Positions 5,162 to 29,846 of a DNA stretch of 33,203 bases are shown piece by piece. Origin of the DNA: a virus. Where the stretch lies: UHGV virus genome UHGV-0162190, one strand, 5' to 3'. The notes under the pieces were generated by a model that ran no database searches, was not told the DNA's origin, and was given only the letters and a program-made list of their open reading frames with translations. The position numbers were made by a program, and so were the translations under genes. Position 1 is the first letter of the stretch; each line of letters starts with the position of its first letter.

Positions 5162-6352
5162 TTAATTGCTGTTAACCGAGGTGACCAGATTTGCCAGATA
5201 TTTATCGGTGATACGCTGGCGCAGGGTCAGGTTTTCGAGAGGAGGCACCGGGGTATAGTCGTAGTCGATATACAGTTTTCCGGCCTTGAGGGTTTCCGCA
5301 TCGTTGGATTCTTCGCTGAACCAGCAGGTCGCATCCACGATATAGCCGTTTGTTTTCAGCTCACGGAATTTGGCATTGATGCCGTCAACGATGTCGCGAA
5401 TCAGCGTTGCGGTGATGGGCTTGTCCACCGCCCACATGTGCGCCTCAGCCATCGTATCGGCCAGCACCTGCGCGGTGCGGGTGTAGTTTTCAAAGAGGAA
5501 CAGCGGGTCATCGGAGCAGGTACGGTTACCCCAGAAGCGGAAACCGTCGCGGCGAATCAGCGTAGTGACGCCTGACTCGTTAAGCAGGTCAGCATCGGTG
5601 CCGGACTCCTGCAAATCCCAGAAGACGGATGCGCTGATGCCGGTAACACCGTTCACCCCGACATTGGACAGCGTTTTATGCCAGCCCTGCTCCTGGTCGA
5701 TTTTAGCGCGCAGGCCCAGCGCACGGGCGGTGGCATACGTGGTGGCGGTGGTACTGGTGACCGTATCCCATGCGAGGAAATCCGGCCAGATGACCATCAG
5801 CTCACGCTGGCTGAAATTCTGGCGGTAGGCTTTCACCTCGGAAATGGTCTTACAGCCCCATGCGCTGATATATCCGAAAGCGCGCAGCTTCTGACAGACT
5901 GATGCCAGTGCAACAGCCACCTCTTTGGTGTCCAGTCCCGGCACGCCGAGAATACGCGGTTTAACACCGGTTACCGACTCCGCCGCCAGCAGGGCTTTCA
6001 GTCCGGTGTACTGACCGTTTTCGTCGGTGGTGCCGATGATATTGGAAACGGTCTGCGCAAGTTTCGTTTCTTCGTCTTCGCCGGTGCCGTCTTCCACACG
6101 TACAACAACGGTGACCGGTTTTGACTGGTCAGCGATGGCCTGCAACGACGCCGCCAGCGTGCCTTTTTTACCGGCCTTTGCAATTGCGCTCTGCACATTG
6201 GTAATCAGCACCGGTTTATTGAGGGGGAAGGTTTCCGCATCCGCATCGCTGGCCGTGCAGACCATGCCGACAATGGCCGTGGATACGGTGGAAATGACGC
6301 GGGTGCCGTCGTTAATCTCCAGCACCTGCACGCCATGATGATAGTCACTCAT
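5162..6352 (-). CDS. FI: Contractile tail sheath protein gpFI
   Basis: 396-aa ORF at the P2 FI position and length. Confidence 0.88.
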   Translation of the reverse strand: MSDYHHGVQVLEINDGTRVISTVSTAIVGMVCTASDADAETFPLNKPVLITNVQSAIAKAGKKGTLAASLQAIADQSKPVTVVVRVEDGTGEDEETKLAQTVSNIIGTTDENGQYTGLKALLAAESVTGVKPRILGVPGLDTKEVAVALASVCQKLRAFGYISAWGCKTISEVKAYRQNFSQRELMVIWPDFLAWDTVTSTTATTYATARALGLRAKIDQEQGWHKTLSNVGVNGVTGISASVFWDLQESGTDADLLNESGVTTLIRRDGFRFWGNRTCSDDPLFLFENYTRTAQVLADTMAEAHMWAVDKPITATLIRDIVDGINAKFRELKTNGYIVDATCWFSEESNDAETLKAGKLYIDYDYTPVPPLENLTLRQRITDKYLANLVTSVNSN

Positions 6353-6713
6353 CCGTTTAACTCCGTGGTTAATGGGTGCAACTATTTTCTGTTGTGCAGA
6401 GCATGAGACGCTATTTGACCTGGCTGGTCAGTGGATGAAACAACAGACAAAGAAAAGGCGGGTAATCCGCCAGCCTGTCATGATTTGCACTCACTCCTTT
6501 TCCAACTGACAATTTACATAGCCCAAACGCTATCAAATCTGACAGTCTGCTTTGAGCGATCAGCAGACGTTCGTACTTGAGTTGCCATAGATCTTGCTCA
6601 CAATGTCGTGTATCAATCAACTGGGAACAGGTCAATCGTTGCGAATGATATCGATATCTCCTGAAATTAGGGGTATTACTAGGTGGCTAAAGTAACTTGT
6701 TAATGGAGTAGGA

Positions 6714-7439
6714 ATGGCAAACTATGTATCAGGGAATATCATTTCTCAATCGTATGTTCATGTTAATCCTGAGTGGTTAAAAAATGCGACCCCTCAAGAT
6801 AAGAAACTAAGAATCAATGAGATTGAGAAGCAAATAACTGCCTTTGCGAAGAGCCGAATACCTTTTTTTATTGGAAGTGAGGTAGAGATAACAGTTGAGT
6901 TCTCTGAAGGCTCAATCATCGCGAAAATCACCGCTTACGGTAAGATCATCCCACTACTGGGGGGGCTAGTTATCGGATACCCACACTTTAGTGAGGGTGT
7001 TAGAACCATGGTGAAAGATGCACATGATCTAGGTTCGTATATTAACTCCGAGCTGTTATTTCAAACAGGCGCAAAACATAAATCTGAGCGCAAGTCAGTT
7101 GAGGCTCGCTTAGGAGTTTTTGGTATTATTGATCGCGTTAACGCCCAGATTAATGATCTAAGCTTGATCTCTCGGAGGAAGGAAAATTCGCCATCAATCA
7201 CATATAAAAAATTGTTACAGTTGCATGGGGATATCCTCTCATCCCTTGATAAGATTTCTGAAAATGCCCTAGATGACTCAGATGAAAAAATAGCCAAGGA
7301 TATGTGGATTGAAGGCGTATCCGGCATATCTGTGGGACGATCGCATTTCAAATTTAATCTTAAAGGTGATGATGATGTGTACAAAATGTTGGTTGCCGAA
7401 AAGCAGAGCATTCTTGATGACCTGAAAAAAAGGCAATAG
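6714..7439 (+). CDS. Hypothetical cargo protein (241 aa) at the Z/fun-equivalent position; function unknown
   Basis: AT-rich ORF on the strand opposite the late operon, between FI and G. GGAGTAGGA Shine-Dalgarno precedes the ATG. No transmembrane segment and no motif I can recognise. Followed by a hairpin. Confidence 0.6.
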   Translation: MANYVSGNIISQSYVHVNPEWLKNATPQDKKLRINEIEKQITAFAKSRIPFFIGSEVEITVEFSEGSIIAKITAYGKIIPLLGGLVIGYPHFSEGVRTMVKDAHDLGSYINSELLFQTGAKHKSERKSVEARLGVFGIIDRVNAQINDLSLISRRKENSPSITYKKLLQLHGDILSSLDKISENALDDSDEKIAKDMWIEGVSGISVGRSHFKFNLKGDDDVYKMLVAEKQSILDDLKKRQ

Positions 7440-7475
7440 GGCCTAATGCCTCCGTGGTGGGTATATAAAAATCAC

Positions 7476-7511
7476 GGGGAGCAGGGCTAGCTTCGTCTTG
7501 ACCTGCTCCCC
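7476..7511. terminator. Hairpin between the two convergent cargo genes (10-bp perfect stem GGGGAGCAGG / CCTGCTCCCC, 16-nt loop)
   Basis: Inverted repeat read directly from the sequence about 37 nt after the 6714-7439 stop. No clear U-tract, so it may be a factor-dependent terminator or a processing site. Confidence 0.4.
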
Positions 7512-7617
7512 ATAGACATAAATCCGACTGCTTTAGCGATTTCTTTTAATGTACTAGTAACCTTTAATGATTCTGTCAGAGTTGCCGTTATGGGCTGGGT
7601 TGTAGCAGTGACCCGTC

Positions 7618-8082
7618 TCAGAAGTGTTTGTTCTCATAGGCATCTTTCACTCCGGCGTGTTTCTCCGCACAGGCCCGTAGGATGGTGAGGGCGTGCCGGA
7701 TTAACTGCTCACTGCGTTCCGGTTCAAACCAATTACCATTGAATTTTCCGCCGTGAAAGAGATTGTTTCTTACTCGACAGACCAGCAGTAAAATTAGTTC
7801 AGCCCGGTGCCGGGAACTCGGTAGTTTTTCCGACCACATGATCCCCTTTTCACCGTAAATCTGTTTTTTAGGGGGATGCTCTTCGAAGTAATGAATCGCT
7901 TCATTAAGTTTAGAGGTAGACGGGTTTTCGATAACGTCACGCACCTGATCGGAATATCCATTCCAGTCAGCTTTTAAATGGCCTCCATTGATTAAAATCC
8001 CACATGCCTTAAGGCAATATTCATATCGTGAAAACTCAATAAAAAACTCACAGGCCAGTTGTTGTAACATAAAAAACTCCAT
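7618..8082 (-). CDS. Hypothetical cargo protein (154 aa) with an R-x4-H motif (RNNLFH, residues 105-110); possible HEPN-fold RNase
   Basis: AT-rich ORF convergent with the 241-aa gene. The motif sits in the C-terminal third of a small protein, as in HEPN domains. The fold assignment is inferred from the motif only. Confidence 0.5.
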   Translation of the reverse strand: MEFFMLQQLACEFFIEFSRYEYCLKACGILINGGHLKADWNGYSDQVRDVIENPSTSKLNEAIHYFEEHPPKKQIYGEKGIMWSEKLPSSRHRAELILLLVCRVRNNLFHGGKFNGNWFEPERSEQLIRHALTILRACAEKHAGVKDAYENKHF

Positions 8083-8304
8083 ATCCTGTAGGGACTTAAC
8101 TTAAAACAACTATATTAATCATCCATGCTACACATTATAGAACTTATTATGTAACTTTTAGGAATGGTAATTTACAAGCTCAAAGCCTGGATCAATGAGG
8201 ATTTTTTAGCTCCTATATAGCTTGTTGGAAGGTCCGCTTCTGGCACAGTGCGGACTGTCAGATTAGGCTTTACTCTGTGCTATAGATATGTCAGCTCATA
8301 CAAC

Positions 8305-8832
8305 TTATTGCGGCATTTCCGGCCATTCAGGATTTGCAGGATCCACACGGCTGACCAGAACGCTGTAGCGTTCCCATGCTTCCAGTCGGCTGCGTTCCTC
8401 ATCCGTCGCCATATTCAGCCTGACAGCGCGTTCCAGCGGCAAAATCACGGATTCAGCTTCGGAAAGTAAAGCTGCCTTTTGTGATTCTGCCAGTTGCTCC
8501 TGTTCATCTGCCGTATAAATCCGCTTAATCACGGCACCATCCTTAAACATCCATTTACCTGAGTCATCAGCACGTCGGTTGGAGGTAATATCAGGAACCT
8601 CGACAACGCTGAAACCTTCAGGGTTAAGCGTTGAAGCATCTCTGGTGATGCCGACAATTATATTATTCTCGTCGTAAACAATCTTTATCGTGTCTTCCTG
8701 AAAATTACTTACTTCCTCATACCAGTTTTTTCCCTCTTCGGACCATAACCAGATAACATCGAAATTTTTTGTCAGTTGATATTGGGCAACAGTTTTGGGA
8801 TTACCCGCAGTAATATTTTTTAAATGCTGCAT
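8305..8832 (-). CDS. G: Tail fibre assembly chaperone gpG
   Basis: 175-aa ORF immediately downstream of tail fibre H, with a 3-nt gap. Confidence 0.8.
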
Positions 8833-19151: not shown

Positions 19152-20225
19152 TTACGCTCCCGGCTCTGCGGTCGCCTTAGCCGGTGTGGAGAAATCACCG
19201 ACCTTAATTTTTTCCACCAGGCAACCGGCGGCGTAGTCTTCCACCACGTAATCAATATTCATTGACTCGTAGTTCTCCACGCGGTCGAGTTTCGGGTTTT
19301 CCTCAATCACGCGGCGATGGCTGTCATCCATGTAGTAGATGGACAGGTTTTCCAGCTTCGTGATGAGCATCGCATCCGCCGGGAAGTACGGGACGCGTAC
19401 CGCCGGCAGGTTGCCGATGCGCTTCTGGCTGATGATGACGTCAGCGGCCAGCATTTCGCTGTTGTCCTGCTCCTTGTTAACGATGGGGAAATACTTGTCC
19501 GCCAGTAGCTGACGCCCCACAATCACCACAAGGTCAGGGTCTTCCTGATACCACGGTTCAATCAGGTTGTTGGTCGCATCCATCACCAGTGCGTCGAGGC
19601 TTACATAATCACCGCCCTTACCCACGCGGATAACCTCAGAGGTGGTGTGCCCTTCCTCGTCAGTGACCTTGCTCATCACGCGCGCCGGGGCTTCATTGCG
19701 GTATTTCTGCAGCCAGCCGACCGCCACATCCTGCAGCATCGGATTACTGTTGCGGTCAGAGGTTTCGGCACGCTTCACACCGTTAAAACCGGCCATGATG
19801 AAATCAAGGGACTGGCGTTTGATAATGGCGTTACGGATACGGAGCTGGAAATCCTGATAACGTGCCCACAGGTCAAGCGTTTTGTAGCGGATATAAAAAT
19901 CGAAGTTAATCTGGTCGCATTCGTACTTGTTTGACGCCAGCTTCGAGAAGTCCTTCGGCTGACGCTCGGTGCCACCGGCAGTGTCGGTGGTGCTGGCGAT
20001 TGAGCCGGTGACACCGATACCAATTTTTTCCCCTTTCATTTCGCTGACCGGCACAATGTTGATGCGGGTCAGAAAATCAGAGGACTCCTGCATGGTGTTC
20101 ATCAGGGTCTGGGTGACCGACGGTTCAACGGTGAATTTTTTCGACACATCACCGGCGTCGATGCCGTTCAGTTCGGCAACACGGGACAGGTAGGCATTAA
20201 ATTTAAAGCGGGTTTCCTGGCGCAT
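19152..20225 (-). CDS. N: Major capsid protein gpN
   Basis: 357-aa ORF downstream of scaffold O. Confidence 0.9.
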   Translation of the reverse strand: MRQETRFKFNAYLSRVAELNGIDAGDVSKKFTVEPSVTQTLMNTMQESSDFLTRINIVPVSEMKGEKIGIGVTGSIASTTDTAGGTERQPKDFSKLASNKYECDQINFDFYIRYKTLDLWARYQDFQLRIRNAIIKRQSLDFIMAGFNGVKRAETSDRNSNPMLQDVAVGWLQKYRNEAPARVMSKVTDEEGHTTSEVIRVGKGGDYVSLDALVMDATNNLIEPWYQEDPDLVVIVGRQLLADKYFPIVNKEQDNSEMLAADVIISQKRIGNLPAVRVPYFPADAMLITKLENLSIYYMDDSHRRVIEENPKLDRVENYESMNIDYVVEDYAAGCLVEKIKVGDFSTPAKATAEPGA

Positions 20226-20283
20226 AGTTTTTCCTGAAATTAAGGGTTAATCGTGAAGGTTTTCCCGGACTGGCTGACGCCGG

Positions 20284-21138
20284 TCAGCAGTTCGTCATCA
20301 GGGCGTCACCGCCACCGCCGGTGGCCTTGCTGCGGCGCTGCTGGGTCAGACTTTCGGTGTGGTCGAGACTGTTTTTCAGGCGGGTGAATGCCTGGCTGGT
20401 TTCATCCGCCCTGTCAGTCACCTCCTGCTTAAGTGCGGAAAAGGCAGTTTCCATCTCAGCGAGGCGCTGCTCAGTGGCGCTCAGTTTTTCCTGCACATGT
20501 TCAGCAACAGCGGTCACCGCTTCATGCACGTCATTCAGACGGGCGTCATCGCTGGCCTGTTTGCGGCCAAAAATGGATTTCACCTTTTCGGTCAGGGCGG
20601 TGAACACGGTTTCAGGCAGGTCTTCAAATTCCAGCTCAACGGGCGTTGCCACTGAAATCAGGTTTTCAGGGCTTAATTTGAAGCGGTTCAGGGGGTTGTG
20701 TTTTGCCGTGCGGCAGAATTCCAGGTATTCCGTGCCGAGGCTTGCCGGGTCATCGGTGACGGCCAGCCCCACCAGATAACATTTGCCGGTGTTGGCAAAG
20801 TTCGGCTGAATTTCCATTGAGGTGTAGACCTTCTGCGCGGCCTTGTTCATCGCGATAAGGTCATCGGTCGGGGTGATTTTCGCAAACAGCGCCCATTTGC
20901 CTTTCAGCGCCGAATCATCGTCAATCTTTTCGGCCTTCAGTTCGGCCACATCGCCATAACGCTTAAAAATACCGTCAGGCAGGATGCCGCGCAGATGTTC
21001 CAGGTTAATGCGGCAACCATAGACACGCGGGTCAAAGGTTTCGGCCATTTCCTGAATATCCTGCGCACTGATGACACGCCCGTCACAGGTGTCACCCTCA
21101 ACGCCGATACGAAAGAATTTTGAGACTTTTTTTGCCAT
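20284..21138 (-). CDS. O: Capsid scaffolding protein gpO
   Basis: ORF 20284-21204 trimmed to the in-frame ATG (MAKKVSKF...), giving 284 aa as in P2 O; divergent from P. Confidence 0.8.
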   Translation of the reverse strand: MAKKVSKFFRIGVEGDTCDGRVISAQDIQEMAETFDPRVYGCRINLEHLRGILPDGIFKRYGDVAELKAEKIDDDSALKGKWALFAKITPTDDLIAMNKAAQKVYTSMEIQPNFANTGKCYLVGLAVTDDPASLGTEYLEFCRTAKHNPLNRFKLSPENLISVATPVELEFEDLPETVFTALTEKVKSIFGRKQASDDARLNDVHEAVTAVAEHVQEKLSATEQRLAEMETAFSALKQEVTDRADETSQAFTRLKNSLDHTESLTQQRRSKATGGGGDALMTNC

Positions 21139-21311
21139 TGTCAGGAGTCCTGAATAGTGATTAGAGGAGTCACATGTCGGCATCAGTTTCCCGACGATGC
21201 GCATCCTCCGCCATCAGTCCCGGATGGCTTATCACTGACACAACAGCACCTTAGCGAATCGCGGGGCGCGACTCAGTAGCCTTGCCGTGTATTCATCACG
21301 GCGAGGTATTC
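21139..21311. promoter_or_regulatory. Divergent late-promoter region between O and P
   Basis: Intergenic region between the divergent capsid (O) and terminase (P) operons. In P2 this region holds the Ogr-activated PO and PP promoters. I did not find an unambiguous TGT-N12-ACA activator site by eye. Confidence 0.4.
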
Positions 21312-23084
21312 ATGACCATCACCACAGACACCACTCTTTTACACGACCCGCGTCGTCAGGCGGCGCTGCTGTACTGGCAGGGGTTTTCCGTGCCGCAGAT
21401 TGCCGCCATGTTGCAGATGAAACGCCCGACGGTGCAGAGCTGGAAACAGCGCGACGGCTGGGACAGCGTTGCCCCCATCAGCCGTGTCGAAATGAGCCTG
21501 GAAGCGCGGCTGACCCAGCTCATCATCAAACCGCAGAAAACCGGCGGTGACTTCAAGGAAATTGACCTGCTCGGACGCCAGATTGAACGACTGGCACGGG
21601 TAAACCGTTACAGTCAGACCGGCAACGAGGCAGACCTTAATCCGAACGTCGCTAACCGCAACAAAGGCGGGCGGCGCAAACCGAAAAAGAATTTTTTCAG
21701 TGACGAGGCCATCGAAAAGCTGGAGCAGATTTTCTTTGAGCAGTCTTTCGACTATCAGTTGCACTGGTATCGCGCCGGGCTTGAGCACCGCATCCGCGAT
21801 ATCCTGAAATCCCGCCAGATTGGTGCAACGTTTTATTTTTCCCGCGAGGCGCTACTGCGCGCCCTGAAAACCGGTCATAACCAGATTTTTCTGTCGGCCA
21901 GTAAAACGCAGGCGTATGTGTTCCGCGAATACATCATCGCCTTTGCCCGTCTGGTTGACGTTGACCTGACCGGTGACCCGATTGTCCTGGGCAATAACGG
22001 CGCAAAACTGATTTTTCTCGGCACCAACTCCAACACCGCACAGAGCCATAACGGCGACCTGTACGTCGACGAGATTTTCTGGATCCCGAATTTTCAGGTA
22101 CTGCGTAAGGTGGCATCAGGTATGGCCTCACAGAGTCACCTGCGCTCAACCTATTTCTCCACCCCGTCCACGCTGGCGCACGACGCCTACCCGTTCTGGT
22201 CGGGTGAACTGTTTAACCGGGGACGCGCCAGCGCCGCCGAACGCGTGGAAATCGACGTCAGTCATAACGCCCTTGCCGGTGGGCTTCTCTGTGCGGACGG
22301 CCAGTGGCGGCAGATTGTCACCATTGAGGACGCGCTGAAAGGCGGCTGCACGCTGTTCGACATTGAGCAGCTCAAACGCGAAAACAGCGCCGACGATTTT
22401 AAAAACCTGTTCATGTGTGAATTTGTTGACGACAAGGCGTCGGTGTTCCCGTTCGAGGAGCTGCAACGCTGCATGGTCGACACGCTGGAAGAATGGGAAG
22501 ACTATGCACCCTTTGCCGCCAATCCGTTCGGCTCCCGCCCGGTATGGATTGGTTACGACCCGTCACACCGTGGCGACAGCGCCGGATGCGTGGTGCTGGC
22601 ACCGCCGGTGGTGGCCGGTGGCAAATTCAGAATACTTGAGCGTCACCAGTGGAAAGGCATGGACTTTGCCACCCAGGCGGAATCCATCCGCAAACTCACC
22701 GAAAAATATAACGTCGAATACATCGGTATTGATGCCACCGGCCTCGGTGTCGGCGTGTTCCAGCTCGTGCGCTCGTTCTATCCCGCCGCGCGCGATATCC
22801 GCTACACACCGGAAATGAAAACCGCAATGGTGCTCAAGGCAAAAGACGTCATCCGCCGTGGCTGTCTGGAATATGACGTCAGCGCCACCGACATCACCAG
22901 CTCGTTTATGGCTATCCGCAAGACCATGACCAGCAGCGGACGCAGCGCCACCTATGAGGCCAGCCGCAGCGAGGAAGCCAGCCACGCCGACCTCGCCTGG
23001 GCGACCATGCACGCCCTGTTAAATGAGCCACTCACCGCCGGTATCAGCACCCCGCTGACATCCACCATTCTGGAGTTTTACTGA
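21312..23084 (+). CDS. P: Terminase large subunit (ATPase/nuclease) gpP
   Basis: ORF 21282-23084 trimmed to the first ATG (MTITTDTT...), which has a GAGGT Shine-Dalgarno, giving 590 aa as in P2 P. Confidence 0.9.
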   Translation: MTITTDTTLLHDPRRQAALLYWQGFSVPQIAAMLQMKRPTVQSWKQRDGWDSVAPISRVEMSLEARLTQLIIKPQKTGGDFKEIDLLGRQIERLARVNRYSQTGNEADLNPNVANRNKGGRRKPKKNFFSDEAIEKLEQIFFEQSFDYQLHWYRAGLEHRIRDILKSRQIGATFYFSREALLRALKTGHNQIFLSASKTQAYVFREYIIAFARLVDVDLTGDPIVLGNNGAKLIFLGTNSNTAQSHNGDLYVDEIFWIPNFQVLRKVASGMASQSHLRSTYFSTPSTLAHDAYPFWSGELFNRGRASAAERVEIDVSHNALAGGLLCADGQWRQIVTIEDALKGGCTLFDIEQLKRENSADDFKNLFMCEFVDDKASVFPFEELQRCMVDTLEEWEDYAPFAANPFGSRPVWIGYDPSHRGDSAGCVVLAPPVVAGGKFRILERHQWKGMDFATQAESIRKLTEKYNVEYIGIDATGLGVGVFQLVRSFYPAARDIRYTPEMKTAMVLKAKDVIRRGCLEYDVSATDITSSFMAIRKTMTSSGRSATYEASRSEEASHADLAWATMHALLNEPLTAGISTPLTSTILEFY

Positions 23085-24118
23085 TGAGCAAGAAAAAAGG
23101 GAAAACACCGCGACCTGCGGCAAAAAAAATGACTGCCAGCGCCCCGAAAATGGAGGCATTCACCTTTGGTGAGCCGGTGCCGGTACTCGACCGCCGTGAT
23201 ATTCTGGATTACGTCGAGTGCATCAGTAACGGCAGATGGTATGAGCCACCGGTCAGCTTTACCGGTCTGGCAAAAAGCCTGCGTGCTGCCGTGCATCACA
23301 GCTCACCGATTTACGTCAAACGTAATATTCTGGCTTCAACGTTTATCCCGCACCCGTGGCTTTCCCAGCAGGATTTCAGCCGCTTTGTGCTGGATTTTCT
23401 GGTGTTCGGTAATGCGTTTCTGGAAAAGCGCTACAGCACCACCGGTAAGGTCATCAGACTGGAAACCTCACCGGCAAAATATACCCGCCGTGGCGTGGAG
23501 GAGGATGTTTACTGGTGGGTGCCGTCCTTCAACGAGCCGACATCTTTCGCGCCCGGCTCCGTGTTTCACCTGCTGGAGCCGGATATCAATCAGGAGCTGT
23601 ACGGCCTGCCGGAATATCTCAGCGCCCTTAATTCTGCCTGGCTGAATGAGTCGGCCACGCTGTTCCGCCGCAAGTATTACGAAAACGGCGCTCATGCCGG
23701 ATACATCATGTACGTCACCGATGCCGTGCAGGATCGCAACGATATCGAAATGCTCCGCGAAAACATGGTGAAGTCGAAAGGCCGCAACAACTTTAAAAAT
23801 CTGTTTCTCTACGCCCCACAGGGAAAAGCCGACGGCATTAAAATTATCCCGCTCAGTGAAGTGGCAACGAAGGACGATTTTTTTAATATCAAAAAAGCCA
23901 GCGCCGCTGACCTGCTGGACGCGCACCGCATCCCCTTTCAGTTGATGGGCGGCAAGCCGGAGAACGTCGGGTCGCTGGGTGATATTGAGAAAGTGGCAAA
24001 GGTCTTTGTCCGCAATGAGCTTATCCCGCTACAGGACAGGATCCGCGAGATAAACGGCTGGCTCGGTCAGGAGGTCATCCGCTTTAAAAACTACTCACTG
24101 GACACTGACAACGGCTGA
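23084..24118 (+). CDS. Q: Portal protein gpQ
   Basis: 344-aa ORF; its start overlaps the P stop (TGATGA); last gene before cos. Confidence 0.9.
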   Translation: MSKKKGKTPRPAAKKMTASAPKMEAFTFGEPVPVLDRRDILDYVECISNGRWYEPPVSFTGLAKSLRAAVHHSSPIYVKRNILASTFIPHPWLSQQDFSRFVLDFLVFGNAFLEKRYSTTGKVIRLETSPAKYTRRGVEEDVYWWVPSFNEPTSFAPGSVFHLLEPDINQELYGLPEYLSALNSAWLNESATLFRRKYYENGAHAGYIMYVTDAVQDRNDIEMLRENMVKSKGRNNFKNLFLYAPQGKADGIKIIPLSEVATKDDFFNIKKASAADLLDAHRIPFQLMGGKPENVGSLGDIEKVAKVFVRNELIPLQDRIREINGWLGQEVIRFKNYSLDTDNG

Positions 24119-24123
24119 ACATC

Positions 24124-24145
24124 GCCGCCTGCGGGCGGCTTTTTT
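24124..24145 (+). terminator. Rho-independent terminator of the P-Q operon
   Basis: GCCGCC-TGCG-GGCGGC hairpin followed by a run of T residues, about 6 nt after the Q stop. Confidence 0.65.
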
Positions 24146-24286
24146 ACAACCCGCCATCACGCCCTCACACGCTCACCACCGCGCAAAACAGCCCGCAGAC
24201 ACACCGACGCCCAGGCAGGCCAAGTAAACGCCTTCACGACGCGCTCAGACGCTGAAAAAATAAAATCAGCACCACCGCCAGCGCGC

Positions 24287-24305
24287 AGTGCTTTCCCCGC
24301 CTCGC
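24287..24305. other. cos: cos cohesive-end site (P2-type 19-nt sequence)
   Basis: GTGCTTTCCCCGCCTCGCC is the exact reverse complement of the P2 cohesive end GGCGAGGCGGGGAAAGCAC as I recall it; it lies just downstream of Q, as expected. Confidence 0.8.
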
Positions 24306-24455
24306 CCGCCCGCTTCATGAAGCGGTTTGAATGCAGTTGTATACCGACGCAGACTTCCTGCCAGTTCTAGCTACTCATAACAAAAAAAAACATTACAGAT
24401 GAATGCAAAATCATGCAACTAATGAAGGCGTACAGGCTAGGTGAGAAAATAAATG

Positions 24456-25256
24456 CTATTTCATCAGTCCTATAAAAGCTGCTGTCATGCTACCCAATGC
24501 ACCAATAGCAGCAAATAACGTTGCCCAAAACATGCTTTTTTGGCTACGAATATTCTCATTATATCGTTGTTCTTCATTATTGAAGTGATTTAACGTATTA
24601 ATTGCTTTTCCAGTGGGCTTATAACCATCTCGAGTCTTTGAAATGTCCCCACTCTCTACAAGGGAATCCAGACATAAGCGAAGTTCTTTTATGAGTCGAG
24701 AATAATCATCATGGTAGATCCATAAACGTCCTGCCACATCATTCATAATTAGAGTCTCACTGAATGGTTTTTCCCCTTGCTGCTCTCGATAAATTCTGAC
24801 AATTGCAGCCAATACCGTCATTACATCGGTTATCTCCTGCTTGCGTTGTCGATACAAATACTTCTCACGACTTAGCTTTTTATTTTGACGATTCGCTATT
24901 CTTCTAAATCTAAGCACATTAAAAAAAGATAAGTCGTCCAATGAGTCAAACTTCAATTCATGCGCATGATAATAATAAATTCCAGAAAAGGAATTTGATG
25001 TAAGTCGTTCTGGTTTAAGAATTGTATCAATATTGAAAGTTTTATTCTGATGATTCCACTTCTTAACCTTTATAATTCCGTTTGAATAACTATCAAAAAG
25101 ATAGTCATTACCCTCGTCATCCTTAATGTAAACGGAATACATATCGTAATGAATGGCACTCTCATACATTAAACTAATTTTGCCATTTTCAGGAGTCTTC
25201 TTTGACTCAAAAACTTTTAGAAACTTTACAACATCAACTTTATTTTTATACCTCAT
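24456..25256 (-). CDS. Hypothetical C-terminally membrane-anchored protein (266 aa); candidate effector of the RT cassette or an independent defence gene
   Basis: AT-rich ORF with an AAGG Shine-Dalgarno. Soluble N-terminal domain of about 240 aa, then a single C-terminal hydrophobic helix (FWATLFAAIGALGSMTAAFIGL). Lies 165 nt downstream of the RT on the same strand. Confidence 0.6.
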   Translation of the reverse strand: MRYKNKVDVVKFLKVFESKKTPENGKISLMYESAIHYDMYSVYIKDDEGNDYLFDSYSNGIIKVKKWNHQNKTFNIDTILKPERLTSNSFSGIYYYHAHELKFDSLDDLSFFNVLRFRRIANRQNKKLSREKYLYRQRKQEITDVMTVLAAIVRIYREQQGEKPFSETLIMNDVAGRLWIYHDDYSRLIKELRLCLDSLVESGDISKTRDGYKPTGKAINTLNHFNNEEQRYNENIRSQKSMFWATLFAAIGALGSMTAAFIGLMK

Positions 25257-25324
25257 ACATTCAGCCTTGACTGTAAACCACCATATTAAATTATTGCACT
25301 AACGACTCGTACCACTTATTGTTC

Positions 25325-25367
25325 AACCCAGTCAGAATTGAAAGCAAACTTCTGCACTAACTGGGTT
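25325..25367 (-). other. Structured element between the RT gene and the downstream membrane-protein gene
   Basis: 8-bp outer stem (AACCCAGT / ACTGGGTT) enclosing a 5-bp inner stem (CAGAA / TTCTG). No U-tract. Read directly from the sequence. Confidence 0.35.
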
Positions 25368-25421
25368 ACCATCATAATATATCGATACTAATAAAATCCG
25401 ATATCATTATATTTTAGTGTA

Positions 25422-26372
25422 TTAAACCGATGTATTTGCTTTCAACGTCAATACTTTCGATCTGTAACGTTTTTCAATAACCCCCATTGAATATAAACGA
25501 CCAAATAATTTCTTTGCTGTTCTTGTATCTTTAGCTTGTTCTACATCTTTTATTATTTTCCAAAGCTCTATTTCTCTAGCCATAAGATAATGCTGTTCGT
25601 TCCTAACCTTTAAGCTATCCCCAAATACTATAACTCCTGTCACCAGTTTAGGCTTATCCCCAGCATATAATTTCGTTTTAGTTGGATGCATCACGTGTCC
25701 ATGCTTATTAATAATCTTACGAATCACGCTGCAAAACAATCGATTTACATTATCTCCAGAAAAAGTAAGATCATCGACATAAACTGTCATTTTCACACGA
25801 AACTTCTCACAAAGTTGATTCATTTCATCAAACATTCTGGAATTTGCAAAATATGCTAATGGCATACTAATCCGACTACCCGTTGGCAATCGTTCATGAC
25901 AGGTACATATATGAGATAAAATATCAGCCACATCTGGCGACATTTTCATTATTGAGAAAAAGAAAGAAAATATCATTTCTCTTGTTGTTGACGGAAAAAA
26001 AGATTTAATATCTGTAGTCATCAACTTCTGATGATTGAGATGTGCTTTAGCATTTGTTATGTTAGAGCAACTTTTTTTACCAGAGTGCAAATACTCTGGC
26101 ATAGCTATACGCAATAATAAACTCGCAATACGTGTATGCACTACATCTAATTTTTCTAAAGGCTTTTGTATTTTCCGTATTTTATTTTTTTTAGAAAGCT
26201 GTTCAAAAATAGAGTAATTACCCTCATCCCTCTTCAAAGCTGATAGATCATTGATACTAACGCAGAGCAAGTTAGCCAACTTTTTTTTACTTTTAAGTTT
26301 ATAAAGTGGCGAATCCGTAATAGGATAAGATTTATTTTTAGTTGAAACCTTCAGTTTAATCCTTTTTTTCAT
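25422..26372 (-). CDS. Reverse transcriptase, retron-type (316 aa)
   Basis: Motifs in order: K-rich finger motif (SKKNKIRKIQKP); NAKAH (retron NAxxH) followed by DIKSFFPS; LPTGSRISMPLAYFAN; catalytic YVDDLTFSG; HPTKTKLY; and KLVTGVIV (retron VTG motif). Small size, no maturase or endonuclease domain. ATG overlaps the upstream HTH gene. Confidence 0.88.
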   Translation of the reverse strand: MKKRIKLKVSTKNKSYPITDSPLYKLKSKKKLANLLCVSINDLSALKRDEGNYSIFEQLSKKNKIRKIQKPLEKLDVVHTRIASLLLRIAMPEYLHSGKKSCSNITNAKAHLNHQKLMTTDIKSFFPSTTREMIFSFFFSIMKMSPDVADILSHICTCHERLPTGSRISMPLAYFANSRMFDEMNQLCEKFRVKMTVYVDDLTFSGDNVNRLFCSVIRKIINKHGHVMHPTKTKLYAGDKPKLVTGVIVFGDSLKVRNEQHYLMAREIELWKIIKDVEQAKDTRTAKKLFGRLYSMGVIEKRYRSKVLTLKANTSV

Positions 26373-26658
26373 TTCTTTTACTTACCCACTCTAGTATATC
26401 CAGAACTTTCCCTGCCAGTTTTAAACGTAAACTTTTGGATAACCGTCCTTGTGTCCCTAATGATTCTGAAAAAAAGACTAAAGAGGATACTGGCATGTCG
26501 AAATGGGAAGCATAACGCTGTAAAATATCAATCGACGGCACCCATAGTCCGCTTTCAATCTCTACTATTCTGCTTTTTGGAATACCTAAAGATGATGATA
26601 AGTCAACTATTGATTCTTTATGGTATTGCCTTATTAAACGAAGGGCTTTATGCAACAT
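26356..26658 (-). CDS. XRE-family helix-turn-helix protein (about 100 aa), translationally coupled to the RT
   Basis: HTH signature ...ESIVDLSSSLGIPKSRIVEIESGLWVPSIDILQRYASHF. Start set at the second ATG, which has a GGAG Shine-Dalgarno (the first ATG is at 26670). Its 3' end overlaps the RT start. Confidence 0.75.
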   Translation of the reverse strand: MLHKALRLIRQYHKESIVDLSSSLGIPKSRIVEIESGLWVPSIDILQRYASHFDMPVSSLVFFSESLGTQGRLSKSLRLKLAGKVLDILEWVSKRNEKKD

Positions 26659-26694
26659 AGGCAACTCCATCTTGTTGAAACTAGGGAGGACGCA

Positions 26695-26850
26695 TTACTC
26701 ATCTCCCCCTTCAAAGAAGTCAACTGCGCGAGTGATCCAATAAAGTAGTCTAATAAGCCACTTAATTACACCCCAAGCGTTAGGAGTCTTCTTTTTCCGG
26801 TTTAACTTGTTTTGCGCCTGCTGTTCGTTGGTTACTTTATCATTTTTCAT
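26695..26850 (-). CDS. Possible small protein (51 aa, MKNDKVTNEQQ...) with a hydrophobic C-terminus, upstream of the HTH gene
   Basis: Internal ATG of ORF 26695-26988 preceded by GGAGCAGG. Basic stretch followed by WGVIKWLIRLLYWI. The N-terminal part of the listed 97-aa ORF overlaps structured non-coding-like sequence and is probably not translated. Confidence 0.35.
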   Translation of the reverse strand: MKNDKVTNEQQAQNKLNRKKKTPNAWGVIKWLIRLLYWITRAVDFFEGGDE

Positions 26851-27100
26851 GACCTGCTCCTTATGTCCACGGTGTGCAAACGATATGTCTGCTCCAACAC
26901 CATGGCTCGCCCTCATAAGGATGAGATTGAACAGCACCAGCTCCCTGCTCCACGAACCCTTTGTCGCCCAAAGGGTTCGAATACCCATACGCTATACCGC
27001 TTGAATCAGAGACTCCTGTCGCTGACAGAGGCGTTGCGCGGGGTAAATGTTAGAAAGCATTAGCTTTCCACGGGCAATAAATACCCAATTGATGGCGATT
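26851..27100 (-). ncRNA. Candidate retron non-coding RNA (msr-msd) or structured leader of the RT operon; boundaries approximate
   Basis: Non-coding stretch upstream of the RT operon on the same strand. Perfect 11-bp GC-rich hairpin (CGAACCCTTTG-5 nt-CAAAGGGTTCG, about 26953-26979) plus further short stems (CTGTC-GCT-GACAG about 27015-27027; GAAAGC-ATTA-GCTTTC about 27054-27069). I could not identify a1/a2 flanking repeats by eye. Confidence 0.3.
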
Positions 27101-27292: not shown

Positions 27293-29581
27293 TTAAAATA
27301 AAAACAATGCTTCATCTTCAATTCCCGGCCAAACATCAGCAACCGGATACATGAATTTTTTCCCGTCATAATTTACGGTCGCGCCACGCGCCAGCGCCTC
27401 AAGCTCCCATCGCTGAGGGCTGATACCGTTCTGAGCAAGGTCAACGCGGATACGGGTAATTTGCATTCGTTCCGACCTGGTCAGCCTGGCTGATGGCGCT
27501 ATTTCATGCGGTTTTAACGGGCTTCCGTCTCTTTGCTGACGGTTTGGTGTTCTCAGTCCGTGTTTTAATGCACCCCTGAGCGCCCTCACGACCTCCGGGT
27601 CACTCCATTCGATGACACCGTCATCAACCAGATTAAGCACTGCTGCGGCGTGTTCAGAAGGCGTGGGAGCCGGTGACGAAGTATCACCACCGGTGAGCTT
27701 TCCACAGTTATTGACAGGACTCCGAGGCGCGGCGATGCCGCTTTTTAAAGTCAAAGGCTCAACGACCGGAACTTTCGGCACAATGCGCCAGTCCGTCGTT
27801 CTGGTGATATGAATATGACGCGCGCCGAGATGCGGCGCGTAAATGCCGACCACTCTCTCGACTTCTTCCTCGTACTCGTTAACTTCATCCGACGGACTAC
27901 GGGCAACCCTGACAGTCTGACAATCGCGCGGAACATTTGCCCCACCCTGCGCGCTGATATACAACGCAAAATCACCACTGTCTGCGGCAGCGCGTGCAGC
28001 CTCGACGCGTTCGTCAAACTCATCAGCAATGCTGACGCCGCGAGGCAATTTGCGTAGTTCACGGTAAGCCCCCATTGTCGGCAGGCCAACCGTTTTAAAT
28101 TGCGGAATGCGCCACGTTGATGCCCATGCGGTAACAGCCGCGGCAGTGTCTTTCAGCGGCCTGCCGGTATCGTTATCGAGCTGACCATCCAGTGCATAGC
28201 CATCGATGTTTTTTGAGATGTATTTCGCGATATACCCCGCAGCACCGCCCCGGTTAAGGTGTTTTGCCTGAAAACGGTTTCGCGCAGCTCCTCTTTCGTC
28301 GCCATCCTCTTTGAGCGCGTAGCGACGCATGATTTCAATAATCTGGTTACGCTGGCGTGGATTACAAAAAAGCATCATATGCCAGTGCGGCGTTCCGTCG
28401 TGGTGTGGTTCAACAACACGCAAACCGTAGGCCTGTAAATCATTATCCTTGAATGCCGTGCGCATCAGGCTCCAGATACGGCAGAGATAACGCTGCGCAT
28501 CCTTTGGATTAAATGCCTCATCGTTCCAGCCGTGATTTAGCTGGACGGTTTTACTTTCGCCTTTTCTGACCTGACGTGTCGGGTGATACTTTGACGGCGC
28601 GGTCAGCGTGATAAACATCCCCACATCACCCTCTGCGGCGGCGTAACGCTCAATACCGGCAATGGTGTTCATCAGCTCCATCCGGCGAATTTCAGGATTA
28701 GAAATACTGCCCATCACCTTACTGATAAGGTCGATGCGCTCGCCGGTTTCCCTGTTTTCAAGGTCACACGATTTAAGAAATTCCAGATTTGCCTGGCGGC
28801 GTGCACGCACATCACGAATGGCATGTTTACTGGCATAAGGAGAACGGTCTTTATTGACCTCCCCGACAGCAATCAGTAACGCCTCATGCCAGCGCATACG
28901 CTGGCCTTTAAGCTGATGAGTCCACCACTCATCGTTAAACAGGCGGGCAATGGCAGAATATGCCTGCCTCGTGGTCATCTGTCCTTTACGGTATTTTTTC
29001 CAGTAGAGCGGGGAAATATTGAAAGCACGTGCAGCGCCAGCAACATGACCATAGAGGTGAGCCTGCGCCTCATCCGTAAACAGCGATTCTTTTTCGCCAT
29101 GTGCATCAACCCAGGCATCGCAGAGTTCCTCATACATCATGAAAAGCTGCGATGAGATACGGGCAGCAAACTTTTTCAGCTCCTTGTCATTCATCCCCGG
29201 CAGGCGCGCATAGTGGTCACGCTCTGCCAGAAACAGCAACGACGCGTCGGTGTTCATTTCATGGCGCTGATTAACGCGCTCAATGCGCGGCCATAAACGA
29301 CGCTGAAAAGTGGATGTGAGGAAATAAAACCCGTGCACCGGGCTTTTATTGCGCCGGATGTAGTCATAGCGTGAAGTAAACAGCGAGCGCAAAAAGTAAG
29401 GCAGGCGATTAATCGTGGATAAAACACCTTGCACCTGACGCATCTCGTCACGTGTAAGGGGTCTTTCGCGCCCGACGGCCTCGCGTGGCGCGTTCCATGC
29501 ATAAGCACCGGTAAACGTCTCACCGGTGCCTGCGGCAAATGCTGACGGAGGGACAAAACGCCCGGAGGCTTTAACGGCCAT
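27293..29581 (-). CDS. A: Replication initiator gpA (rolling-circle nickase)
   Basis: ORF 27293-29623 trimmed to the ATG at MAVKASGRF, giving about 762 aa. HUH-type motif (EPHHDGTPHWHMMLF) and catalytic tyrosine region (AGYIAKYISK). Confidence 0.88.
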   Translation of the reverse strand: MAVKASGRFVPPSAFAAGTGETFTGAYAWNAPREAVGRERPLTRDEMRQVQGVLSTINRLPYFLRSLFTSRYDYIRRNKSPVHGFYFLTSTFQRRLWPRIERVNQRHEMNTDASLLFLAERDHYARLPGMNDKELKKFAARISSQLFMMYEELCDAWVDAHGEKESLFTDEAQAHLYGHVAGAARAFNISPLYWKKYRKGQMTTRQAYSAIARLFNDEWWTHQLKGQRMRWHEALLIAVGEVNKDRSPYASKHAIRDVRARRQANLEFLKSCDLENRETGERIDLISKVMGSISNPEIRRMELMNTIAGIERYAAAEGDVGMFITLTAPSKYHPTRQVRKGESKTVQLNHGWNDEAFNPKDAQRYLCRIWSLMRTAFKDNDLQAYGLRVVEPHHDGTPHWHMMLFCNPRQRNQIIEIMRRYALKEDGDERGAARNRFQAKHLNRGGAAGYIAKYISKNIDGYALDGQLDNDTGRPLKDTAAAVTAWASTWRIPQFKTVGLPTMGAYRELRKLPRGVSIADEFDERVEAARAAADSGDFALYISAQGGANVPRDCQTVRVARSPSDEVNEYEEEVERVVGIYAPHLGARHIHITRTTDWRIVPKVPVVEPLTLKSGIAAPRSPVNNCGKLTGGDTSSPAPTPSEHAAAVLNLVDDGVIEWSDPEVVRALRGALKHGLRTPNRQQRDGSPLKPHEIAPSARLTRSERMQITRIRVDLAQNGISPQRWELEALARGATVNYDGKKFMYPVADVWPGIEDEALFLF

Positions 29582-29846
29582 ATGAGCCAAAAGCCTCTGA
29601 ACAACGCCTGCTGAGTTGCTCAACCTGCGCGTTTAAATCAGCAAAAGACTTTGCGCTTCCGGTCAGAATATCGTGATGCATCAGGCCGGAAACGAGCTGG
29701 CTTAATTTCGGGTAATAACCAACCACTGCCAGCCATTCCTGACCGGCGTTTTTACCGCTTTCCGCTCTCTTTTTCTCGTGGAGAATAAACTGAAAGCTGT
29801 CACTGGTAACGACATAACGTTCGCCAATTTCAATACGAATACTCAT
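29571..29846 (-). CDS. Small early protein (91 aa), P2 orf83-equivalent position
   Basis: ORF immediately upstream of A in the early operon. Confidence 0.55.
   Translation of the reverse strand: MSIRIEIGERYVVTSDSFQFILHEKKRAESGKNAGQEWLAVVGYYPKLSQLVSGLMHHDILTGSAKSFADLNAQVEQLSRRCSEAFGSYGR

What the first reader, a model, noticed from the sequence alone, without database searches (positions are those of the whole stretch)
6353..8304. Z/fun-position cargo island: two convergent unknown genes, one with a HEPN-like R-x4-H motif
Seen in sequence: between tail sheath FI and tail-fibre chaperone G, where P2 carries the Z/fun T5-exclusion gene, this prophage has a different AT-rich insert. It encodes a 241-aa protein (6714-7439, plus strand) and a 154-aa protein (7618-8082, minus strand) that converge on a 10-bp perfect hairpin. 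The 154-aa protein contains RNNLFH (residues 105-110, about 7753-7770), matching the R-x4-6-H signature of HEPN RNase domains. Established knowledge: this interval is one of the two main variable defence hotspots of P2-like phages; one described occupant is an Abi-type reverse transcriptase, which is not what is here. Inference: one or both genes are anti-phage or toxin-like cargo. Neither has a motif I can assign with confidence, so they may be uncharacterised.
Basis: partly seen in the sequence, partly recalled or inferred. Interest (0 to 1): 0.72.

Follow-up and report, generated by a model that had tools for sequence, protein, structure and literature searches.

The report
Solo HEPN-like gene in P2 hotspot
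The variable "Z" slot of a P2-like E. coli prophage holds a 1.7-kb mobile cassette of two unrelated, untested single genes; one is probably a small stand-alone HEPN ribonuclease like those recently shown to abort phage infection, and the other is an orphan with no recognisable relatives.

Summary

**The 154-aa protein (B)**
- It belongs to a family of more than 600 protein clusters.
- R105 and H110 are invariant in 82 of 82 homologues.
- In a confident model the motif lies on the third core helix.
- Foldseek, Pfam, PADLOC and a PDB sequence search give nothing significant.

**The two genes are not a pair**
- B has no conserved partner across 80 species.
- The 241-aa protein (A) occurs alone in about 15 other contexts.
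- In E. coli SCU-101 and EC14, A is frameshifted while B is intact. A is therefore not B's antitoxin.

**Mobility.** The same cassette, at least 98% identical, sits in the P2 Z slot, in the other P2 hotspot (portal to gpA), and in non-P2 islands.

**Best reading.** These are two stacked single-gene cargo modules. B is a latent solo HEPN RNase acting by abortive infection, by analogy with HepS and ApeA. A has unknown function and is a defence candidate. Nothing has been tested experimentally.

The parts
6353..6544 (.). Conserved left border of the P2 Z region, between the sheath gene and the cargo
   Evidence: 90-96% identical in 68 phage records and about 1000 E. coli genomes that carry different cargo. 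Contains a terminator-like site on the minus strand at 6471-6457.
6536..6572 (.). Left arm of the imperfect inverted repeat that brackets the cargo
   Evidence: 37 nt, 76% complementary to 8228-8264. Corresponds to the annotated inverted repeats of the P2-EC67 Z region.
6545..8247 (.). Mobile 1.7-kb cassette (A, hairpin, B) shared at 98-100% identity between different genomic contexts
   Evidence: BLAST end points in L002, L003, L239, L240, L012 and L098. Contexts: P2 Z slot, P2 portal-gpA hotspot, non-P2 islands.
6714..7439 (+). Gene A, 241 aa: orphan family with an N-terminal ferredoxin-like domain and a C-terminal helical bundle; function unknown
7476..7511 (-). Stem-loop between the convergent genes; probable intrinsic terminator of B
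   Evidence: A U-run follows the stem only on the minus strand.
7618..8082 (-). Gene B, 154 aa (more likely 150 aa from the ATG at 8070): small stand-alone HEPN-like protein
7753..7770 (-). Codons for R105-N-N-L-F-H110, the putative catalytic R-x4-H motif
   Evidence: Invariant in 26 of 26 and 82 of 82 homologues. Part of the invariant block RxRNNLFHGGKFN. Lies at the C-terminal end of helix 93-110 in the model.
8228..8264 (.). Right arm of the inverted repeat
8265..8304 (.). Conserved right border of the Z region, adjoining gene G

Best explanation
The interval is the known Z-region cargo slot of a P2-like prophage. It holds a 1.7-kb horizontally mobile cassette made of two independent single-gene modules.

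**Gene B.** It encodes a minimal stand-alone HEPN-type ribonuclease of about 17.5 kDa. It has four core helices, a conserved beta-hairpin insert (PPKKQ...W), and the catalytic R-N-x3-H on core helix 3.
- Shown: the motif is invariant, the fold is HEPN-like, no partner gene is conserved, and the gene recurs in phage, satellite and plasmid cargo positions.
- Inferred by analogy with the solo HEPN proteins HepS and ApeA: B is made constitutively as an inactive oligomer. A product of an infecting phage switches it on. It then cuts cellular RNA (most likely tRNA anticodon loops), which stops translation and aborts the infection to the benefit of the lysogen population.

**Gene A.** It is a separate orphan gene, neither antitoxin nor obligate partner of B. 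Its habit of sitting alone in phage hotspots and variable islets makes it a candidate single-gene defence or exclusion factor. Its mechanism is unknown.
For: **HEPN assignment**
- R105 and H110 are invariant in 82 of 82 homologues, down to about 31% identity.
- The residue after R is N, as is usual in HEPN motifs.
- The motif lies on helix 93-110, followed by helix 121-141. The ApeA preprint states that HEPN active sites lie on helix H3.
- HEPN_Apea gives E 0.05 in a 49%-identical homologue. One UniRef name is "Apea-like HEPN".

**Solo gene**
- Across 80 species-level loci no neighbour family recurs. Only spurious antisense ORFs and small lineage-specific groups cluster.
- A is present in 3 of 80 B loci.

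**A is not an antitoxin**
- The same 1-bp deletion truncates A at codon 56 in SCU-101 and EC14, while B is intact.

**Cargo and defence context of B**
- P2 Z slot (window).
- P2 portal-gpA hotspot, beside a DUF4145 protein with a weak match to PD-T7-4.
- Island with integrase, reverse transcriptase and type II RM.
- P4-like satellite hotspot beside Hachiman.
- 4.9-6.1-kb plasmids.
- 11 IMG/VR contigs.

**Cargo and defence context of A**
- P2 portal-gpA hotspot beside DprA and a HAD/phosphoribosyltransferase-domain gene.
- Beside a PIN protein matching PDC-S34.
- Beside type I HsdR, at the integrase/CI repressor end of a prophage, and between the tail-tube gene and an HNH gene of a myovirus.

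**Precedent**
- HepS is a prophage-encoded solo HEPN with motif R100-H105 and no partner. It is inactive by default, triggered by tail-tip protein, and cleaves tRNA anticodon loops.
- ApeA is described.
Against: - There is no experimental datum for either protein.
- Foldseek against the PDB gave no significant hit (best E 0.19, TM 0.2, ribosomal uS7).
- No Pfam HEPN model reaches threshold.
- No PDB sequence hit, so no detectable relation to HepS.
- No PADLOC hit.
- Many B homologues lie among ordinary chromosomal genes with no visible mobile or defence neighbour.
- One very distant locus (L079) again has an A-like gene directly upstream of a B-like gene. This hints at some link between the two.
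- The trigger, the RNA target and the oligomeric state are pure analogy.
Confidence: 0.5

Rival explanations
1. A and B form one two-gene system: either a toxin-antitoxin pair (B the HEPN toxin, A the antitoxin) or a sensor-effector pair.
For: - They travel together as one cassette in at least four contexts at 98-100% identity.
- A distant A-like (33% identical) and B-like (37% identical) pair is adjacent and co-directional in a Proteobacteria MAG, L079.
- In another locus A sits beside a different RNase-type gene (PIN_12/PIN_8).
Against: - A is absent from 77 of 80 B loci.
- B is absent from all other A loci examined: L092-L095, L100-L104, L120, L144, L151, L211, L212, L223, L253-L257.
- A is frameshifted at codon 56 with B intact in SCU-101 and EC14.
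- The genes are convergent, each with its own upstream region.
- The family sizes differ greatly: 625 clusters for B against 10 close clusters (118 distant representatives) for A.
Confidence: 0.12
2. B is a genuine HEPN-fold RNase or nucleotide-binding protein with a role other than defence, for example RNA processing, stress response or plasmid/prophage maintenance. Its presence in hotspots is incidental.
For: - Most of the 80 species-level loci show ordinary neighbours such as chorismate-binding enzyme, two-component regulators and SnoaL.
- The small plasmids that carry B homologues already have a CcdAB addiction module.
Against: - Distribution is sporadic: 98 confirmed loci among 185,579 species, a lower bound because the search was limited to two peptide patterns.
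- B recurs in P2, P4, plasmid and island cargo slots beside known defence genes.
Confidence: 0.2
3. B is not a HEPN protein. It is a helical protein of another fold whose conserved RxRNNLFHGGKFN block serves another purpose, such as ligand or protein binding or an anti-defence function.
For: - Foldseek finds no HEPN structure.
- No Pfam HEPN model passes threshold.
Against: - The motif type (R-N-x3-H), its position about 100 residues into a protein of about 150 aa, and its place on core helix 3 all match minimal HEPN toxins.
- There is a sub-threshold HEPN_Apea hit.
Confidence: 0.12
4. The cassette is decaying junk: ORFs kept by hitch-hiking in a recombination hotspot, with no current function.
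For: A carries inactivating frameshifts in some copies. The cargo is rare, found in 12 of 5,426 E. coli genomes.
Against: - Both families are conserved over large phylogenetic distances, with invariant residues and confident folds.
- B is intact in every copy examined.
Confidence: 0.04

Closest known systems
HepS (STM14_3211, Gifsy-1 prophage of Salmonella; PDB 9OIJ/9OIK; Sargen et al., Nature 2026, PMC13043305)
   Same: - Prophage-encoded single small HEPN protein.
- R-x4-H motif at about residue 100 (R100-H105, against R105-H110, or R101-H106 from the shorter start).
- No conserved partner or inhibitor gene.
- Located in an accessory-gene slot.
   Different: - No detectable sequence similarity: a profile search of PDB sequences found no HEPN chain at E up to 10.
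- Different phage type and slot.
- B has a conserved beta-hairpin insert (PPKKQ...W).
- For B the trigger, target, oligomeric state and defence activity are all untested.
HepT / minimal HEPN toxins of HEPN-MNT toxin-antitoxin systems (PDB 5YEP, 7AE2/7AE8, 8XDJ)
   Same: - Size of about 130-150 aa.
- Four-helix core with the motif on helix 3 at about residue 100.
   Different: - No adjacent MNT nucleotidyltransferase antitoxin in the window or in the 80 homologous loci.
- No Pfam DUF86/HEPN hit.
ApeA (HEPN_Apea, PF18739; Juozapaitis et al., bioRxiv 2026)
   Same: - Single-protein HEPN defence.
- The only Pfam HEPN model that gives even a weak signal (E 0.05, in a 49%-identical homologue).
- One UniRef member is named "Apea-like HEPN".
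   Different: - ApeA proteins are much larger: the HEPN part of Ec2ApeA is residues 335-583, preceded by N-terminal and Mid domains that form the ligand pocket.
- B is HEPN-only.
- The match is below the gathering threshold.
Other occupants of the P2 Z slot: Z/fun of P2 (T5 exclusion) and the reverse transcriptase described in this variable locus by Odegrip et al. 2006
   Same: Same insertion slot between FI and G, bracketed by the same inverted repeats. All are lysogenic-conversion or exclusion cargo (reference list).
   Different: The proteins are unrelated. P2's own occupant is a single minus-strand gene of about 300 aa with no similarity to A or B: only the borders align.
"System 166" and "system 167" of the P2 portal-gpA hotspot (Rousset et al. 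2022, Table S5B)
   Same: System 166 is protein A (one substitution). System 167 is the 269-aa protein that accompanies the cassette in NCTC9100-type prophages.
   Different: They are only catalogued (10 occurrences each, no domain, not tested). They are listed for the other hotspot. B was not found in the part of the table that is held.

Membership tests
HEPN superfamily | Conserved R-x4-6-H motif, usually with a polar residue after R | tested here: met
   RNNLFH. R105 and H110 are invariant in 82 of 82 homologues. N106 is invariant in 26 of 26.
HEPN superfamily | Motif carried on the third core helix of an up-down four-helix bundle | tested here: met
   In the AF2 model (pLDDT 90) the helices are 2-26, 40-68, 93-110 (motif at its C-terminal end) and 121-141. 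The helix-3 location for HEPN active sites is stated in the ApeA preprint. This rests on a model, not a solved structure.
HEPN superfamily | Significant structural similarity to solved HEPN domains | tested here: inconclusive
HEPN superfamily | Match to a curated HEPN sequence model | tested here: not met
   The window protein and 25 homologues scanned against Pfam gave no HEPN family. The best signal is HEPN_Apea, E 0.05, 14.5 bits against a cutoff of 24.4, in a plasmid homologue.
HEPN superfamily | Metal-independent RNase activity dependent on R and H; dimer forming a composite site | not testable with these tools
   Needs biochemistry or a structure.
HepS-like solo HEPN abortive-infection proteins | Homology to HepS | tested here: not met
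HepS-like solo HEPN abortive-infection proteins | Stand-alone gene without a conserved partner or inhibitor, carried by prophages | tested here: met
HepS-like solo HEPN abortive-infection proteins | Phage-triggered tRNA cleavage and abortive infection | not testable with these tools
   Experimental.
HEPN-MNT (HepT/MntA) toxin-antitoxin | Adjacent MNT nucleotidyltransferase antitoxin gene | tested here: not met
   No nucleotidyltransferase in the cassette. A single AbiEii nucleotidyltransferase among 97 neighbours of homologues.
A-B as a type II toxin-antitoxin or obligate two-gene system | Consistent co-occurrence of the two families, and intolerance of loss of the antitoxin | tested here: not met
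   Co-occurrence in 3 of 80 B loci, and in no other A locus examined. A is frameshifted with B intact in L003 and L240.
Any system in PADLOC-DB v2.0.0 | Profile match to a known or candidate defence protein | tested here: not met
   0 families for A, for B, for the L079 B-like protein and for the 269-aa protein.

The most novel reading that the evidence does not exclude
The cassette is a stack of previously unrecognised single-gene anti-phage systems.
- B founds a widespread, un-curated family (more than 600 clusters) of solo minimal HEPN abortive-infection nucleases, with a trigger different from that of HepS.
- A founds a new defence family with a fold combination (ferredoxin-like domain plus helical bundle) that has no characterised relative.
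- The modules (A, B and the 269-aa gene) shuffle as units between both P2 hotspots, P4 satellites, small plasmids and chromosomal islands.
Probability: 0.3. Interest if true: 0.7.

Novelty: new variant of a known kind. Interest (0 to 1): 0.5.

Why it matters
**Gene B.** If B is an active solo HEPN nuclease, it adds a second family, unrelated in sequence to HepS, to the newly recognised class of partner-less HEPN abortive-infection proteins.
- The family is absent from Pfam, PADLOC and NCBIfam, so current defence annotation misses it in hundreds of genomes, plasmids and satellites.
- At about 150 aa it is a compact model for asking how a toxic RNase is kept silent without an antitoxin, and what phage cue releases it.

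**Gene A.** It is a clean candidate for an entirely uncharacterised function in phage hotspots.

**The cassette.** The same cassette occurs in both P2 hotspots and outside P2. This is a concrete example of how hotspot cargo moves between sites.

Tried and rejected
**Family libraries.** Pfam, NCBIfam and PADLOC scans of A and B gave nothing. PHROGs placed both only in families of unknown function.

**Partner gene for B**
- BLAST clustering of all neighbouring ORFs in 80 loci produced only antisense artefacts and small lineage-specific groups.
- A Pfam scan of 97 immediate neighbours was heterogeneous.
- Small ORFs of 25-110 aa showed no conserved family.
- The neighbours of about 250 aa in Rhodoferax (weak PF05168) and Pseudomonas (cysteine/histidine-rich, HNH-like by eye) are unrelated to A.

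**A as antitoxin.** Rejected, because of the frameshifted copies and the lack of co-occurrence.

**Domain fusions of A.** The profile search found none. The single patatin-like fusion (L204) is unconfirmed.

**HepS sequence.** I tried to recover it from the Gifsy-1 record of LT2 and found no ORF with R100/H105, so a direct comparison was not possible.

**CTGTCAG motif.** A third internal copy at 7573 could have marked separate A and B cassettes. The 7-mer occurs 0.42 times per kb in the window, so I do not rely on it.

**RNA and promoters.** An Rfam scan of the interval found no RNA family. The promoter scan found no more sites than in shuffled sequence.

**Literature.** Searches of text and supplements for the WP accessions found nothing. 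A sequence-string search of the Rousset supplements found A and the 269-aa protein only in the Table S5B listing, and not B.

**Metagenome scan.** An alignment-based scan for A failed for lack of conserved stretches. A degenerate DNA pattern was used instead.
Full report
**1.

The ORF list gives A at 6714-7439 (+, 241 aa) and B at 7618-8082 (-, 154 aa). They lie between the tail sheath gene (5162-6352, -) and the tail-fibre assembly gene (8305-8832, -), both confirmed by Pfam.

Only the first 220 nt or so and the last 60 nt or so of the interval match P2, Wphi, L-413C and other P2-like phages. These are the borders of the Z region. In P2-EC67 that region is annotated with left and right inverted repeats, and in P2 itself it holds a single unrelated gene. 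In the window the repeat arms are 6536-6572 and 8228-8264.

G+C is 0.42 across the cargo, against 0.57 in the sheath gene.

The convergent genes are separated by a stem-loop at 7476-7511 with a perfect 10-bp core. It folds at -26.5 kcal/mol, z = -5.1. A U-run follows it only on the minus strand, so it is best read as B's terminator.

RNNLFH starts at residue 105 of the 154-aa reading. RefSeq starts B at the ATG at 8070 (150 aa), and that ATG has the better Shine-Dalgarno sequence.

**2. What B is**

*Libraries and family size*
- Pfam, NCBIfam and PADLOC find nothing. PHROGs places B in phrog_19013, function unknown.
- The family is nevertheless large: 625 clusters at E no higher than 0.001.
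- A pattern-limited scan confirmed 98 loci among 185,579 species, of which 80 were kept. They span Alpha-, Beta- and Gammaproteobacteria, Bacteroidota, Deinococcota, Nitrospirota, Planctomycetota and others.

*Conserved residues*
- 31 positions are invariant in a 26-sequence alignment. They include the block R103-x-R105-N106-x-L108-F109-H110-G-G-K-F-N, as well as PP-x-x-Q (70-74), W83 and W118-F-x-P.
- R105 and H110 are invariant in 82 of 82 unique homologues collected from all loci.

*Structure*
- The AF2 model is confident (pLDDT 90.4, pTM 0.87). It has helices 2-26, 40-68 (broken) and 93-110, a beta-hairpin at 73-84, and helices 121-141 and 143-151.
- The motif ends helix 93-110, the third core helix. 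This is where HEPN catalytic residues lie according to the ApeA preprint, which also calls HepT (5YEP, 7AE8) the minimal HEPN domain.
- Foldseek against the PDB found nothing significant. A profile search of PDB sequences found no HEPN chain.
- A 49%-identical plasmid homologue gives a sub-threshold HEPN_Apea match (E 0.05).

I put the HEPN-fold assignment at about 0.75-0.8.

**3. B is a solo gene**

In 80 species-level loci, all-against-all clustering of neighbouring ORFs gave no recurrent partner. Immediate neighbours vary in size and orientation. Their Pfam content is heterogeneous: integrases, ResIII, AAA_13, SMC_N, AAA_21, AbiEii, GmrSD, a methylase, a resolvase, TnsA and many housekeeping families, each in no more than 3 of 97 proteins. 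No small ORF is conserved.

Contexts that can be interpreted include:
- the hotspot of P4-like satellites in Raoultella and relatives, between the integrase and Hachiman (HamA plus helicase), followed by delta and psu;
- 4.9-6.1-kb plasmids of Citrobacter, Enterobacter and Klebsiella;
- eleven IMG/VR viral contigs.

**4. What A is**

*Family*
- The word-indexed search found only 10 clusters.
- An exhaustive HMM search found 118 representatives at 50% identity, typically 220-265 aa, sharing the N-terminal 160 residues or so.
- Invariant positions are A2, Y4, Y14, G66, S67, E113, E130, R132, G134 and G137.
- No Pfam family recurs among 50 members.

*Structure*
- The model is confident (pLDDT 90.3). 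It shows a beta-alpha-beta-beta-alpha-beta (ferredoxin-like) N-terminal domain, then a helical bundle from residue 160.
- A hydrophobic stretch at 69-87 is below a transmembrane threshold.

*Contexts: almost always solitary*
- P2 portal-gpA hotspot beside DprA and a HAD/phosphoribosyltransferase-domain gene in Rahnella.
- A Pectobacterium chromosomal islet.
- Beside a PIN_12/PIN_8 protein that matches PADLOC candidate PDC-S34.
- Beside type I HsdR; after the integrase and CI repressor at a prophage end; between the tail-tube gene and an HNH gene of another myovirus.
- Beside IS1-like transposases and P63C proteins.
- In Aeromonas and Pseudomonas variable regions.

Rousset et al. 2022 list A as single-protein "system 166" of the P2 portal-gpA hotspot, with no domain and no test.

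**5. A and B are independent**

- A-family genes occur in only 3 of 80 B loci. Two of these are the same cassette at 98-99% identity, in Pantoea and Mangrovibacter.
- B is absent from every other A locus examined.
- The cassette (window about 6545-8247) is shared at 98-100% identity by very different contexts:
  - the Z slot (window; UPEC132);
  - a degraded P2 remnant at yegQ/ogrK, which carries an extra 269-aa gene (NCTC9100);
  - the other P2 hotspot, between portal and gpA (GPEC1222);
  - a non-P2 island with a dynamin-family gene and RdcB (SCU-101);
  - a non-P2 island with an integrase, a reverse transcriptase and type II RM (EC14).
- In SCU-101 and EC14 the same 1-bp deletion at window 6861 stops A at codon 56, while B is intact. 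A cannot be an essential antitoxin.
- The one observation pointing the other way is L079, where a distant A-like gene lies 50 nt upstream of a distant B-like gene. I keep a 0.12 rival for a functional link.

**6. Mechanism**

*Shown*
- The motif is invariant.
- The fold is HEPN-like.
- B has solo status.
- B recurs in cargo slots beside known or candidate defence genes.

*Inferred*
- By analogy with HepS, B is a latent oligomeric RNase that a phage product activates, and it halts translation by RNA cleavage (abortive infection). HepS is a Gifsy-1 solo HEPN with motif R100-H105 and no partner. It is non-toxic when over-expressed, forms a tetramer with buried active sites, is activated by tail-tip protein J, and cuts tRNA anticodon loops.
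- ApeA is a further precedent.
- B is not detectably related in sequence to HepS, so this is "works like", not "member of".

For A I can only say that it behaves as an independent hotspot cargo gene. Its conserved acidic and basic residues on helix 92-118 and strand 126-132 suggest a defined site, but no known catalytic arrangement fits.

**7. Novelty and score**

The slot and the general idea (hotspot cargo, HEPN nucleases in defence, solo HEPN abortive infection) are known. The B family is not curated anywhere I could search and is unrelated in sequence to HepS. A is an orphan. Nothing has been tested. I file the finding as a new variant of a known kind, with interest 0.5. The most novel reading not excluded by the evidence is two or three new single-gene defence families travelling as a stack. 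I give it a probability of about 0.3 and an interest of 0.7 if true.

Noticed in passing
window 24456-26670 (main P2 hotspot, between portal 23084-24118 and gpA 27293-29623): A type VI retron. The reverse transcriptase is at 25422-26372 (-) (PADLOC RT_VI, E 2.5e-106). The HTH protein is at 26356-26670 (-) (HTH_VI, E 2.4e-31). An unannotated 265-aa ORF lies at 24456-25256 (-), with no Pfam or PADLOC hit. The prophage therefore carries a known defence system in its main hotspot as well.
   Followed up: partly
window about 20000-27000 compared with L252 (UPEC132): The Z region is 100% identical to UPEC132, but the window is not colinear with that strain elsewhere. The portal gene is offset by about 868 bp. 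UPEC132 has a 739-aa AAA ATPase in the main hotspot, where the window has the retron. The two hotspots reassort independently.
   Followed up: partly
L002:3208-4206 (NCTC9100), inserted at window 6545-6559: Five E. coli genomes carry a third gene: a 269-aa, tryptophan-rich protein with no Pfam or PADLOC hit, upstream of A. The 15 bp at window 6545-6559 appear at both ends of the 1-kb insert. The protein is "system 167" in Rousset 2022 Table S5B.
   Followed up: partly
window 6536-6572 and 8228-8264: The end points of the mobile cassette in every context fall inside the arms of the Z-region inverted repeat. Copies outside P2 still carry 20-38 bp of the arms. The repeats may take part in cargo exchange rather than merely flank it.
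   Followed up: partly
L204:447-3731 (-): In one metagenome contig, a full A-family domain (residues 867-1088) is fused in frame to the C-terminus of a protein of about 860 aa. That protein has patatin-like motifs (GGGIRS, DGG) and several hydrophobic segments, but no Pfam hit. It could hint at a regulatory or sensor role for the A domain, or it could be an assembly artefact.
   Followed up: no
L079:144-1440: In a Proteobacteria MAG, a distant A-like gene (33% identical) lies directly upstream of a distant B-like gene (37% identical), co-directional, with a gap of about 50 nt. This is the only independent A-B adjacency found.
   Followed up: partly
L258 (Citrobacter freundii plasmid pNFYY328-6, 4942 bp): 970-1947: A B homologue (49% identical) sits on a tiny plasmid between rep and mobC, preceded by an unrelated 156-aa ORF of unknown function. 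CcdAB is also present. Similar plasmids occur in Enterobacter kobei and Klebsiella.
   Followed up: partly
window 6861 (within A); L003 and L240: The same 1-bp deletion next to a T7 run truncates A in SCU-101 and EC14. EC14 has a second 1-bp deletion at 7425. These may reflect shared descent or recurrent slippage.
   Followed up: partly
A residues 93-153 (window 6990-7172): The A-family profile matches the helical part of eukaryotic ribosomal protein eL36 at E 0.015-0.016, across the conserved ERKSVEARLGVFG block. Probably chance.
   Followed up: no
window 6457-6471 (-): A terminator-like hairpin, GGCGGATTACCCGCC followed by a T-run, lies on the minus strand in the conserved left border, upstream of the sheath gene. 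It presumably ends transcription that enters from the cargo or the H-G side.
   Followed up: no
L239:2998-3702 (GPEC1222): The DUF4145 protein next to the cassette in the portal-gpA hotspot gives a weak PADLOC match to PD-T7-4 (E 5e-6).
   Followed up: no
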